NCBI RefSeq assembly: GCF_056712565.1
Contig: NZ_CM160072.1
Direction: 5' to 3' (one strand)
DNA length: 64,000 nt
This document shows, piece by piece, positions 5,295 to 8,200 of the stretch (positions are counted from its first letter, which is position 1; each line of letters starts with the position of its first letter). Made by a program: the position numbers.

Positions 5295-8200
5295 TTAAGC
5301 GCGCGCTTCAACTCACCCCTGCAATATTTTGTCCATCACGCGCCCCGGCAGCAGGCGCTTAAGCACCATTACTGCCCAGGTCACCAGCGTTACCGGATAG
5401 CGCATCTTCGGCTTCTCGCTAATAAAAGCATGGCGCACTTTGTCGACCACCGCTTCCGGTCCCAACGTAAAGCGGGCGGCGATGCCGGGATTTTCGACAG
5501 GTTTATCACTTTGCGTCTGGTTGACGTTGTCGGTGAAGCGAGTACGAATGGGACCGGGTTCGATCAGGCTAACTTTAATTCCGCTGTAACGTAGCTCCAT
5601 GCGCAGTGCGTCTGACCACGCCTCCAGCGCATATTTACTGGCCGCGTAAGCGCCACGACCCGGCGTGGAGATTAATCCCATCACCGATGAGGTCATCACA
5701 ATACGTCCTTCACCGTGCGGTAACATCGCGGGTAACAGGCGCATGGTGAGCTGGTGTGCGCCGAAAAAGTTGGCGGAAAACTGCTGTTCCATCTGCGCAC
5801 GGCTGATGGTGGAAAGGGGGCCATACATGCCGAATCCGGCATTGTTAAAGATCCCATACAGACAATTATCGGTCAGGGCGATCACTTCGTCGGCTGCGCG
5901 ATCAACACTTTCTGGCAAATCCAGATCGATCAACACGCCGGTAAATCCCATGCTGTTCATGCGCTCAACATCATCCGGTTTCCGGCAACCTGCCAGCACA
6001 TGAAAACCCTGGCGTTTTAATTCGAGCGCGCTTTCCAGGCCAATTCCACTGGAACATCCGGTAATTAAGACCGATTTTTGCATAACTTTACCTGTCAGGA
6101 TCTCCGTTGCTTTATGAGTCATGATTTACTAAAGGCTGCAACTGCTTCGCCATCCAGTCGGCAATAAACGGCTGGGCGTCGCGGTTGGGATGAATACCGT
6201 CATCCTGCATCCATTGTGGTTTGAGGTAGACCTCTTCCATAAAAAAGGGCAGCAGCGGAACATCAAACTCTTTGGCGAGTTTGGGGTAAATGGCGCTAAA
6301 GGCTTCATTATAACGGCGACCATAGTTTGCAGGCAGACGTATTTGCATTAACAATGGTTCAGCGTTGGCGGCTTTGACATCCTGCAATATCTGGCGCAGC
6401 GTTTGCTCGGTTTGTTGTGGCTGAAAACCACGCAAACCGTCATTGCCGCCCAGTTCTACCAGCACCCAGCGCGGCTGATGCTGTTTCAGCAGAGCCGGAA
6501 GGCGCGCCAGCCCTTGTTGCGAGGTGTCGCCGCTGATGCTGGCATTGACTACCGACGTTTTACTCTGCCACTTATCATTCAACAAGGCAGGCCAGGCCGC
6601 GCTAGCAGACATTCGATACCCGGCGCTCAGGCTATCACCCAGAATCAATAACGTGTCCGCTGCGGCGGCACGGAAGGTTAACAGGACCAGGAACAGGAAG
6701 GGCAAATGCCAGCGGAAAACATTGTTGAAGTTCATCATCTTAAGAAGTCCGTCGGTCAGGGGGAGCATGAACTCTCCATCCTCACCGGAGTTGAGCTGGT
6801 TGTCAAACGTGGCGAGACCATCGCACTGGTGGGCGAGTCGGGATCGGGTAAGTCAACCTTGCTGGCGATCCTCGCCGGGCTGGATGACGGCAGCAGTGGC
6901 GAAGTGAGACTGGTGGGACAACCGCTACATAATATGGACGAAGAAGCGCGGGCAAAGTTGCGCGCGAAGCACGTAGGCTTTGTTTTTCAGTCATTTATGT
7001 TAATTCCTACCCTTAACGCGCTGGAAAACGTCGAGCTTCCGGCGCTGCTGCGCGGTGAGAGTAGCGCAGAAAGTCGTAACGGGGCGAAAGCGTTGCTCGA
7101 ACAGTTAGGGTTGTGTAAACGTCTTGATCATCTTCCGGCACAGCTTTCTGGCGGCGAACAGCAACGAGTGGCGCTGGCGCGAGCCTTTAATGGTCGACCT
7201 GATGTGCTGTTTGCCGACGAACCCACCGGCAACCTTGACCGCCAGACGGGCGATAAAATTGCCGATCTACTTTTTTCCCTCAACCGTGAGCATGGCACCA
7301 CGTTGATTATGGTGACCCATGACCTGCAACTGGCGGCACGCTGTGACCGCTGCTTACGGCTGGTGAACGGGCAGTTGCAGGAGGAAGCATGATTGCACGT
7401 TGGTTCTGGCGCGAATGGCGCTCGCCGTCGCTATTAATTGTCTGGCTGGCGCTTAGCCTGGCGGTGGCCTGCGTGCTGGCGCTGGGCAATATCAGCGATC
7501 GCATGGAGAAGGGCTTAAGCCAGCAAAGCCGTGAGTTTATGGCGGGCGATCGGGCGTTGCGCAGTTCGCGCGAAGTGCCGCAAGCATGGCTGGAGGAAGC
7601 GCAAAAGCGCGGCCTGAAAGTTGGCAAGCAGCTGACTTTCGCCACCATGACCTTTGCAGGCGACACGCCGCAGCTGGCGAACGTCAAAGCGGTGGATGAT
7701 ATCTACCCGATGTATGGCGATCTGCAAACTAATCCCCCTGGCCTGAAACCGCAGGCGGGCAGCGTATTGCTGGCCCCACGCCTGATGGCACTGCTTAACC
7801 TGAAAACGGGCGACACCATTGACGTGGGCGATGCCACCTTGCGGATTGCCGGAGAAGTGATTCAGGAACCGGATTCCGGTTTTAATCCTTTCCAGATAGC
7901 CCCACGCCTGATGATGAATCTGGCGGATGTTGATAAAACCGGATCCGTGCAGCCGGGGAGTCGGGTCACCTGGCGCTATAAATTCGGCGGTAGCGAGAAC
8001 CAGCTCGACGGCTATGAGAAATGGTTGTTACCCCAGCTTAAACCCGAACAACGCTGGTACGGTCTGGAACAGGACGAAGGCGCGCTGGGGCGATCGATAG
8101 AACGTTCGCAACAGTTCCTGCTGCTTTCGGCGCTTCTGACCTTGCTGCTGGCGGTGGCGGCGGTCGCGGTGGCGATGAATCATTACTGTCGCAGTCGCTA

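What the first reader, a model, noticed from the sequence alone, without database searches (positions are those of the whole stretch)
6706..6738. Divergent tesA and ybbA coding starts overlap by 33 bp
With the known-length starts (TesA MMNFNN..., YbbA MPAENIVEV...), the 5-prime coding ends of two oppositely oriented genes overlap, so both promoters and ribosome binding sites must lie inside the partner's coding sequence. This is an unusual arrangement that constrains both N-terminal coding regions.
Basis: inference. Interest (0 to 1): 0.2.

Follow-up and report, generated by a model that had tools for sequence, protein, structure and literature searches.

The report
Head-to-head overlap of tesA and ybbA
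Two oppositely oriented E. coli genes whose products work together (the TesA lipid hydrolase and the YbbA transporter ATPase) really do share their first 30-33 bases, an arrangement that is already annotated and is conserved across enteric bacteria, so it is genuine but not new.

Summary
ybbA starts at 6706 (+). tesA (-) starts at 6738 (K-12/UniProt, 208 aa) or 6735 (RefSeq PGAP, 207 aa), so the coding 5' ends overlap by 33 or 30 nt with codons in exact register.

The overlap is not a start-codon artefact:
- ybbA has no other usable start.
- The only non-overlapping tesA start (TTG, codon 12) is absent in 9 of 21 Enterobacterales, has no Shine-Dalgarno, and would remove the charged n-region of the signal peptide.
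- Third-codon-position diversity in the first 11 codons of both genes is about 7-fold below the gene means, the lowest window in each gene.
- The 63-nt junction is identical in 5395 of 5417 E. coli genomes.

Both ribosome-binding sites, and all candidate or mapped promoters, lie inside the partner's coding sequence.

Outside Enterobacterales the two genes are still back to back. They usually share a CATG in which both ATGs overlap by 2 nt. The 30-33-nt overlap therefore looks like a derived 5' extension of tesA.

The overlap is in the standard annotation. It is mentioned in the 2025 YbbAP-TesA structure paper and listed as a divergent "excludon" in a 2025 RNA-seq survey. Verdict: real, already known, modest interest. 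Which tesA ATG is used (6735, 6738 or 6768) remains untested.

The parts
6706..6738 (.). Dual-coding overlap: ybbA codons 1-11 (+) and tesA codons 1-11 (-), in register. It is 6706-6735 if tesA starts at its second ATG.
   Evidence: Lowest third-position diversity window in both genes.
6706..7392 (+). ybbA CDS (228 aa), the ATPase of the YbbAP type VII ABC transporter.
   Evidence: About 99% identical (225 of 228 aligned residues) to PDB 9GE6/7/8 chain 'YbbA'. RefSeq annotation.
6112..6738 (-). tesA CDS (208 aa from ATG 6738; 207 aa from ATG 6735). The signal peptide is codons 1-26 and the mature protein starts at 6660.
   Evidence: All PDB TesA chains begin at mature residue A27.
6695..6702 (+). 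ybbA Shine-Dalgarno AGGAAGGG, encoded on the complement of tesA signal-peptide codons 13-15 (P-F-L).
   Evidence: Anti-SD duplex -7.0 kcal/mol, beyond the 5th percentile of random 22-mers (-6.5). Third positions of tesA F14 and L15 are invariant.
6748..6752 (-). Weak SD-like ACGGA upstream of tesA ATG 6738/6735, inside ybbA codons 15-16.
   Evidence: Anti-SD duplex only -3.2 kcal/mol. ybbA codons 15-18 have nearly frozen 4-fold sites.
6703..6705 (-). TTG (tesA codon 12), the alternative start used by some gene callers (197-aa product). It abuts the ybbA ATG with no overlap. Rejected as the start.
   Evidence: 197-aa calls. No SD, -1.5 kcal/mol. Not a start codon in 9 of 21 Enterobacterales.
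6766..6777 (-). Upstream in-frame ATG (6768-6766) with strong SD GGAGAG (6777-6772). It would give a 218-aa TesA and a 63-nt overlap.
   Evidence: Anti-SD -8.4 kcal/mol, spacing 6. The ATG is CTG or TTG in two Citrobacter, is absent in Photorhabdus and Pectobacterium, and is followed by a stop in Rahnella.
6778..6806 (-). Candidate tesA promoter inside ybbA codons 25-34: -35 TTGACA (6806-6801), 17-nt spacer, -10 GAGGAT (6783-6778). Predicted start is about 6771.
   Evidence: PWM score 8.9 against a 99.9th-percentile background of 6.4. ybbA 4-fold sites T27, G28, V29, V32, V33 are invariant in 12 Enterobacteriaceae. TTGACA is kept in 18 of 21 Enterobacterales. No experimental start site was obtained.
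6326..6364 (+). Weak ybbA-strand promoter inside tesA (antisense): TTTGCA-18-AACAAT, with a start site at 6364, 342 nt upstream of the ybbA ATG.
   Evidence: Cappable-seq TSS 518615 (+, U00096.2; relative score 2.45), mapped through K-12 locus L002. PWM-predicted start 6362. Not conserved at synonymous sites.
7389..7392 (+). ATGA 4-nt overlap of the ybbA stop and the ybbP start (same-strand coupling).
6112..6122 (-). 11-nt same-strand overlap of the tesA 3' end and the ybbO start.

Best explanation
tesA and ybbA are two genuine, divergently transcribed genes with no intergenic DNA. Their first 10-11 codons are written on opposite strands of the same 30-33 nt (6706-6735/6738).

Shown:
- Both reading frames in this stretch are under purifying selection.
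- The ybbA ribosome-binding site lies in the codons of the TesA signal-peptide core.
- The tesA initiation region lies in ybbA codons 12-18.

Inferred:
- Each promoter sits inside (antisense to) the partner gene, so the two mRNAs have complementary 5' ends.
- The arrangement is tolerated because both overlapped segments are sequence-permissive: the n-region of a Sec signal peptide, and the short tail before the first beta-strand of an ABC ATPase.
- It is a derived state of Enterobacterales. The ancestral gammaproteobacterial junction had the two ATGs sharing a CATG palindrome (2-nt overlap). A net frame-shifting change (the distance between conserved motifs is 1 mod 3 in 46 of 60 loci outside Enterobacterales and 0 mod 3 in all 19 Enterobacterales junctions measured) removed that tesA start, and translation moved to an in-frame ATG 10-11 codons further into ybbA.
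- The overlap is then held in place by selection on both proteins rather than by a demonstrated function of its own.
For: Coordinates and annotation.

The ybbA start is unique. There is no other ATG/GTG/TTG between the upstream stop and codon 42. Structural homologues (LolD, MacB, MJ0796) align from YbbA residue 6-8.

The tesA start.
- An ATG is present at codon 1 and/or 2 in 21 of 21 Enterobacterales: codon 2 in 19, and codon 1 only in Photorhabdus.
- Codon 12 is not a start codon in 9 of 21.
- In Citrobacter werkmanii and C. youngae neither gene has any canonical start codon (ATG/GTG/TTG) that would avoid the overlap.

Dual constraint.
- Third-position diversity is 0.059 in ybbA codons 1-11, against a gene mean of 0.451 (rank 1-2 of 218 windows).
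- It is 0.070 in tesA codons 1-11, against 0.430 (rank 1-2 of 198).
- ybbA P2 CCA, A3 GCG and E4 GAA are invariant. These fix tesA W10, R9 and F8.

Population level. The junction 63-mer is identical in 5395 of 5417 E. coli genomes. Control 63-mers from the gene bodies are identical in 262 and 362 genomes.

RBS energies.

Promoters: Cappable-seq + strand start sites lie only inside tesA/ybbO. A conserved TTGACA-17-GAGGAT lies in ybbA.

Transcript overlap: tesA-ybbA is listed among the 16 divergent excludons of E. coli (PMC12288877).

Ancestral state: a doubly in-frame CATG in 38 of 60 non-Enterobacterales loci, and D mod 3 = 1 in 46 of 60.
Against: - No initiation-site data (Ribo-RET, TetRP, N-terminomics) for tesA or ybbA could be retrieved. 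The signal peptide is cleaved, so the TesA initiator has never been observed directly.
- The SD in front of ATG 6738/6735 is weak (-3.2 kcal/mol). The non-conserved ATG 6768 has a strong one (-8.4).
- The diversity statistics are not phylogenetically corrected and rest on 12-17 species. 5' ends of genes are somewhat constrained anyway.
- His CAT to CAC in one gene would only change ATG to GTG in the other, so invariance of CAT is weaker evidence than it first looks.
- No - strand TSS data were obtained, because the supplementary file was truncated. The proposed tesA promoter has a poor -10 (3 of 6).
- CATG in Pseudomonas and Halomonas may not be the tesA start, since shorter signal peptides are available.
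- The evolutionary route is inferred from spacing arithmetic only.
Confidence: 0.8

Rival explanations
1. Annotation artefact. TesA actually initiates at TTG 6705-6703 (197-aa precursor), so the two genes merely abut (CAA|ATG) and no base is read in both directions.
For: - Many automated gene calls in public data use exactly this start (197- and 194-aa forms).
- The TTG sits where the ancestral CATG-type start would be (3*(22+42) = D = 192).
- Long divergent overlaps are often mispredictions (PMC2478687, abstract).
Against: - Codon 12 is TGG in two Citrobacter, TAC in Winslowiella, TTT in Acerihabitans, CTC in Rahnella, CTT in the JGI metagenome locus L086, and TTA in Photorhabdus and Providencia.
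- There is no SD (-1.5 kcal/mol).
- The resulting signal peptide (MPFLFLVLLTFRAAAA) would lack a charged n-region.
- tesA codons 2-11 show amino-acid-level conservation, which forces invariance of ybbA 4-fold sites.
Confidence: 0.05
2. The overlap in E. coli is really 63 nt. TesA initiates mainly at ATG 6768 (218-aa precursor, MLPLTDGLLKMMNF...), which has the best ribosome-binding site. The annotated ATGs are internal methionines or secondary starts.
For: - GGAGAG sits 5-6 nt upstream, with an anti-SD duplex of -8.4 kcal/mol against -3.2 for the annotated starts.
- The ATG (ybbA His21 CAT) is present in 14 of the 16 Enterobacteriaceae/Erwiniaceae-type junctions (D = 192) examined, and His21 is never CAC.
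- ybbA synonymous sites in codons 15-18 and 24-29 are frozen.
- 218-aa calls exist in public data.
Against: - The ATG is CTG in Citrobacter sp. FP75 and TTG in C. youngae. It is absent in Pectobacterium and Photorhabdus. It is separated from the conserved start by a stop codon in Rahnella.
- Third-position diversity in ybbA codons 12-21 is 0.265, much higher than in the 1-11 overlap (0.059). The tesA-frame residues there vary freely (P/T/S, L/I/F).
- If the TTGACA-17-GAGGAT element is the promoter, the GGAGAG would not be in the mRNA.
Confidence: 0.15
3. The zero-spacer junction is an adaptive regulatory device. Obligatory 5' antisense overlap of the tesA-ybbO and ybbAP transcripts (an excludon) sets the ratio of the hydrolase to its transporter partner, through transcriptional interference or RNase III cleavage of the duplex.
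For: - tesA-ybbA is one of 16 divergent excludons detected in at least 50% of 58 E. coli RNA-seq samples (PMC12288877).
- TesA and YbbAP form a physical complex (PMC12646458).
- Head-to-head adjacency with 0-30 nt of spacer or an overlap holds in 61 of 75 loci across Gamma- and Betaproteobacteria.
Against: - Because the annotated CDSs overlap, any expression of both genes scores as transcript overlap, so the listing is nearly automatic.
- Partners in a complex would be expected to be co-expressed, not mutually exclusive.
- No reciprocal expression or RNase III data for this pair were found.
- Conservation of a spacer-less junction can be explained by the lack of any neutral DNA in which indels could accumulate.
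Confidence: 0.25

Closest known systems
tesA (b0494) / ybbA (b0495) junction of E. coli K-12 as annotated in GenBank/RefSeq and described for the YbbAP-TesA complex (PLoS Biol 2025, PMC12646458)
   Same: It is the same locus. The K-12 annotation already gives a 33-nt overlap. [quoted passage not shown]
   Different: This window is a different strain: 27 differences from K-12 in 1.5 kb, none in 6605-6881. PGAP annotates the second ATG, giving 30 nt. The paper does not analyse start codons, dual-coding constraint or the CATG state in other orders.
Divergent excludons (overlapping 5' transcripts of head-to-head genes; ExcludonFinder, NAR 2025, PMC12288877)
   Same: tesA-ybbA is explicitly listed. 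Here the transcripts must overlap, because the coding regions themselves do.
   Different: Typical excludons overlap in untranslated regions (mean intergenic distance 95 nt in that study), whereas here the overlap includes translated codons of both genes. Reciprocal regulation has not been shown for this pair.
Divergent (5'-5') overlapping gene pairs in prokaryotic genomes (Lillo & Krakauer 2007, PMC2174442; PairWise Neighbours database, PMC2716372)
   Same: Opposite-strand 5' overlap in phase 123:321. [quoted passage not shown] This class is strongly under-represented because initiation signals must be co-encoded.
   Different: Most reported cases are unverified annotations. This one is supported by conservation in 21 Enterobacterales and by synonymous-site suppression.

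Membership tests
Divergent (head-to-head) overlapping protein-coding gene pair | Two CDSs on opposite strands whose 5' ends share nucleotides | tested here: met
   ybbA 6706.. (+) and tesA ..6738/6735 (-). RefSeq annotations give a 33- or 30-nt overlap.
Divergent (head-to-head) overlapping protein-coding gene pair | No plausible alternative start codon removes the overlap | tested here: met
   ybbA has a single start codon before Walker A. The tesA TTG at codon 12 is not conserved (9 of 21 lack it) and lacks an SD. Citrobacter werkmanii and C. youngae have no non-overlapping option among canonical ATG/GTG/TTG starts.
Divergent (head-to-head) overlapping protein-coding gene pair | Both frames of the shared stretch evolve under protein-level constraint | tested here: met
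   Third-position diversity is 0.059 and 0.070 against gene means of 0.451 and 0.430, the lowest windows in both genes. The junction is identical in 99.6% of E. coli genomes.
Divergent (head-to-head) overlapping protein-coding gene pair | Both overlapped N-termini are actually translated (initiation observed) | not testable with these tools
   No tesA or ybbA entries in the initiation-profiling or N-terminomics supplements that were readable. The TesA signal peptide is cleaved, and PDB chains start at A27.
Divergent excludon | Overlapping transcription from both strands at the 5' ends | tested here: inconclusive
   Listed as a divergent excludon from RNA-seq coverage (PMC12288877). Cappable-seq shows + strand starts 342-789 nt upstream of ybbA, inside tesA/ybbO. 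No - strand start-site data were obtained.
Divergent excludon | Reciprocal (mutually exclusive) expression and/or RNase III processing of the duplex | not tested
   No data for this pair were found in the papers read.
YbbAP-TesA type VII ABC transporter / lipid hydrolase system | YbbA ATPase, YbbP 804-aa FtsX-type permease and SGNH hydrolase TesA encoded together | tested here: met
   YbbA is about 99% identical (225 of 228 aligned residues) to PDB 9GE6-8; TesA matches 1IVN and 9GE8 chain T at E about 1e-121. ybbP lies at 7389-9803. The divergent tesA / ybbA-ybbP layout is present in 79 of the 80 genome loci; L019 retains only a C-terminal ybbA fragment.

The most novel reading that the evidence does not exclude
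The spacer-less head-to-head junction of tesA and ybbA is a selected regulatory coupling that is conserved from Betaproteobacteria to Enterobacterales. It takes the form of a shared CATG start palindrome in most Gammaproteobacteria and a 30-33-nt dual-coding overlap in Enterobacterales. Because each promoter and RBS is embedded in the partner's 5' coding region, the two mRNAs are obligatorily antisense at their 5' ends. This would tune the stoichiometry of the periplasmic hydrolase and its ABC extractor.
Probability: 0.2. Interest if true: 0.45.

Novelty: already known. Interest (0 to 1): 0.22.

Why it matters
The result settles a recurring annotation ambiguity. Public databases hold 197-, 204-, 207-, 208-, 218- and over 280-aa 'TesA' precursors. 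The analysis shows that the divergent overlap is real and selected, and it is one of the few verified 5'-5' coding overlaps in E. coli.

It has practical consequences for engineering. tesA is widely manipulated for fatty-acid production, and any edit to its first 11 codons or its signal peptide also edits the ybbA start, RBS or N-terminus. The reverse also holds.

The comparative picture (a shared CATG in other orders, extension in Enterobacterales) gives a concrete example of how a divergent overlap arises by 5' elongation. It also gives a testable case for antisense coupling between genes whose products form one complex.

Tried and rejected
Experimental start-site data.
- TRAINSPOTTER N-terminomics, Salmonella riboproteogenomics, TetRP and SMRT-Cappable-seq supplements contained no tesA or ybbA entries.
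- The Ribo-RET preprint and ExcludonFinder have no held supplements.
- Thomason 2015 is not held.
- The Cappable-seq TSS file is truncated to part of the + strand, so only ybbA-strand starts could be read.
- Converting its U00096.2 coordinates uses an offset of 776 nt from my own knowledge. The mapping is supported by a PWM-predicted start 2 nt away.

Other searches and candidates.
- The Rfam scan of 6000-7500 gave only one chance-level hit, so there is no known structured RNA.
- The built-in promoter scan found nothing on the tesA strand. A custom PWM found two candidates. I rejected TTGCCC-15-TATTAT (start about 6922) because its ybbA synonymous sites are variable.
- I considered and rejected the TTG (197-aa) start.
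- I considered the ATG 6768 (218-aa) start and kept it only as a minority rival.
- CATG in Pseudomonas and Halomonas was treated as ambiguous, because shorter signal peptides exist.
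Full report
**What is there.** The window is E. 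coli: 100% identical to ATCC 11775 over 6400-7100, with matches in 5418 of 5426 complete genomes.

On the + strand an ORF runs 6706-7392 (228 aa, MPAENIVEV...). 6706 is the first ATG/GTG/TTG after the in-frame stop. It is about 99% identical (225 of 228 aligned residues) to the YbbA chains of PDB 9GE6-9GE8.

On the - strand the tesA frame is open from 6768 to 6112. MMNFNN... begins at 6738 and the second ATG is at 6735. Codon 12 is TTG at 6705-6703.

The K-12 RefSeq record annotates tesA 519139..519765 and ybbA 519733.., a 33-nt overlap. PGAP-annotated genomes, including the one identical to this window, start tesA at the second ATG, giving 30 nt.

The codons are in exact register. The ybbA ATG is read on the other strand as tesA His11 (CAT). 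The tesA ATG ATG is read as ybbA His10 His11.

**Is the overlap an annotation artefact?** Public gene calls disagree. TesA precursors of 218, 208, 207 and 197 aa occur (204 and 194 aa in Salmonella), as do fusions of 286-402 aa. The 197-aa form starts at the TTG and would abut ybbA without overlap. I tested this with 80 genome loci retrieved with a TesA alignment, plus four more.

- *ybbA.* It has one start codon between the upstream stop and the Walker A motif in nearly all Enterobacterales. Solved homologues (LolD, MacB, MJ0796) align from YbbA residue 6-8, so no downstream start is structurally possible.
- *tesA, the ATGs.* An ATG at codon 1 and/or 2 is present in 21 of 21 Enterobacterales. 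The pattern is ATG-ATG in 14. It is ACG-ATG in Salmonella, Winslowiella, Superficieibacter, Mangrovibacter and one Enterobacter, and ATG-CTG in Photorhabdus.
- *tesA, codon 12.* It is TGG, TAC, TTT, CTC, CTT or TTA in 9 of 21.
- *Forced overlap.* In Citrobacter werkmanii and C. youngae neither gene has any canonical start codon (ATG/GTG/TTG) that would avoid the overlap.
- *The TTG itself.* It has no Shine-Dalgarno (-1.5 kcal/mol against the anti-SD). It would also yield a signal peptide with no charged n-region.

**Selection on both frames.** The comparison used 12 Enterobacteriaceae.

| Region | Third-position pairwise diversity |
|---|---|
| ybbA codons 1-11 (overlap) | 0.059 |
| ybbA codons 12-21 | 0.265 |
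| ybbA codons 22-42 | 0.341 |
| ybbA gene mean | 0.451 |
| tesA codons 1-11 (overlap) | 0.070 |
| tesA gene mean | 0.430 |

- The overlap ranks 1-2 of about 200 eleven-codon windows in each gene, and 1 of about 200 when five further Enterobacterales are added.
- ybbA P2 (CCA, a minor codon), A3 (GCG) and E4 (GAA) are invariant. Any change there would alter tesA W10, R9 or F8.
- At the population level, the 63-nt junction 6691-6753 is identical in 5395 of 5417 E. coli genomes. Control 63-mers from the bodies of ybbA and tesA are identical in 262 and 362.
- One rare variant that I inspected has a 6-nt in-frame deletion in the TesA signal-peptide core and a change in the ybbA SD, with the overlap untouched.

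These statistics are not phylogenetically corrected, and the 5' ends of genes carry some constraint of their own. Even so, the effect is large and symmetric.

**Expression signals.** The ybbA SD (AGGAAGGG, 6695-6702; -7.0 kcal/mol) is the complement of tesA signal-peptide codons P13-F14-L15. Pyrimidine-rich Phe and Leu codons give a purine-rich complement. The annotated tesA starts have only a weak SD-like ACGGA (-3.2).

An upstream in-frame ATG at 6768 has a strong GGAGAG (-8.4, spacing 6). It would make the overlap 63 nt. This ATG is common in Enterobacteriaceae but is CTG or TTG in two Citrobacter and missing in Pectobacterium and Photorhabdus. In Rahnella a stop codon separates it from the conserved start. 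The intervening codons are much less constrained. I keep it as a minority rival or secondary start.

ybbA synonymous sites are also frozen in codons 24-34. On the tesA strand this reads TTGACA(6806-6801)-17-GAGGAT(6783-6778). Its PWM score is 8.9, against a 99.9th-percentile background of 6.4, and the -35 is kept in 18 of 21 Enterobacterales. This is a candidate tesA promoter with a predicted start near 6771. It is not experimentally supported.

For ybbA, the readable part of the Cappable-seq table shows only weak + strand start sites at U00096.2 518168, 518388 and 518615, and none closer. All lie inside ybbO/tesA on the antisense strand. 518615 maps to window 6364, 2 nt from a PWM-predicted start.

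**Context and rarity.** In this 64-kb window the other intact divergent pairs have the following spacers:

| Pair | Spacer (nt) |
|---|---|
| cusC/cusR | 156 |
| cysS/ppiB | 173 |
| fdrA/allD | 316 |
| allA/allS | 229 |
| fetA/qmcA | 145 |

Surveys report divergent overlaps as strongly under-represented, because initiation signals must be co-encoded (PMC2174442).

**Wider phylogeny.** The divergent tesA / ybbA-ybbP layout is present in 79 of the 80 loci (Gammaproteobacteria plus Cupriavidus and Massilia); L019 retains only a C-terminal ybbA fragment. I took the shortest plausible starts for each gene.

- Of 75 loci with assignable starts, 35 overlap, 26 have a gap of 0-30 nt, and only 14 have more than 30 nt.
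- Outside Enterobacterales the distance D between the TesA GDS and YbbA Walker-A anchors is 1 mod 3 in 46 of 60 loci.
- In 38 of those 60 loci there is a CATG in which both strands read an in-frame ATG, a 2-nt overlap.
- In Vibrionaceae this CATG is the only tesA start available.
- In Pseudomonas and Halomonas shorter signal peptides are possible, so those cases are ambiguous.
- All 19 Enterobacterales junctions measured have D = 0 mod 3 (192 or 195; 228 and 240 in two lineages with insertions), with almost the same absolute spacing as Vibrio (193-197).

The simplest reading is as follows. The ancestral junction had no spacer and a shared CATG. A net 1-nt frame change in the Enterobacterales ancestor removed that tesA start. 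Translation then moved to an ATG 10-11 codons further into ybbA, adding MNFNNVFRWH to the signal-peptide n-region. This matches the published general model of divergent overlaps arising by 5' elongation (PMC2716372). The route itself is inference.

[quoted passage not shown] ExcludonFinder lists tesA-ybbA among 16 divergent excludons in E. coli (PMC12288877). That listing is nearly automatic when the coding sequences overlap, and no reciprocal regulation has been shown. The feature is therefore already known. This analysis adds four things:
- evidence that the overlap is real rather than mis-annotated;
- the finding that the conserved start is the second ATG;
- the location of the embedded signals;
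- the CATG state in other orders.

**Verdict.** The feature is real, conserved, already annotated and published, and of modest interest (0.22). The open points are which tesA ATG is used in vivo and whether the forced 5' antisense overlap has any regulatory effect.

Noticed in passing
L020-L082 (junction about 3430-3510 in each locus); e.g. L021, L025, L029: Outside Enterobacterales the two divergent start codons usually share a CATG palindrome (2-nt overlap). This holds in 38 of 60 loci, and 46 of 60 have an anchor distance of 1 mod 3. It is unambiguous in Vibrionaceae and ambiguous in Pseudomonas and Halomonas.
   Followed up: partly
L014 (Pectobacterium zantedeschiae), upstream of 3501: A 48-nt insertion lies inside the dual-coding stretch and is open in both frames. 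It lengthens both N-termini and gives an overlap of at least 51 nt and up to 78 nt.
   Followed up: partly
window 6775-6807 (- strand reading): A block of invariant 4-fold sites in ybbA codons 24-34 spells TTGACA-17-GAGGAT on the tesA strand. It is a possible tesA promoter embedded in ybbA, or alternatively the RBS (AGGATGGAGAG) for the non-conserved ATG at 6768.
   Followed up: partly
L087 (E. coli EC24), equivalent to window 6694-6699: A rare E. coli allele carries a 6-nt in-frame deletion in the TesA signal-peptide hydrophobic core and a G>T change in the ybbA Shine-Dalgarno. The 33-nt overlap is unchanged.
   Followed up: yes
window 6768-6900 (- strand frame); proteins P0002, P0003, P0039, P0121: The tesA reading frame stays open for a long way antisense to ybbA in many species. 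As a result, gene callers emit 286-402-aa 'TesA' proteins that are almost certainly over-extended.
   Followed up: no
window 6112-6122 and 7389-7392: Same-strand overlaps flank the pair: tesA/ybbO by 11 nt and ybbA/ybbP by the usual ATGA 4 nt. In Salmonella (L083) tesA is shorter (204 aa) and is followed by a 154-nt gap before ybbO.
   Followed up: no
L088 1575-1965 (hokE region, elsewhere in the window): The only other annotated divergent CDS overlap in the window is hokE with a 'hypothetical protein' (32 nt). This is a type I toxin locus where the second ORF is doubtful.
   Followed up: no
window 6927-6935: An AT-rich patch (CATAATATG) inside ybbA gives -10-like hexamers on both strands. The synonymous sites there are not conserved, so it is probably not functional.
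   Followed up: partly
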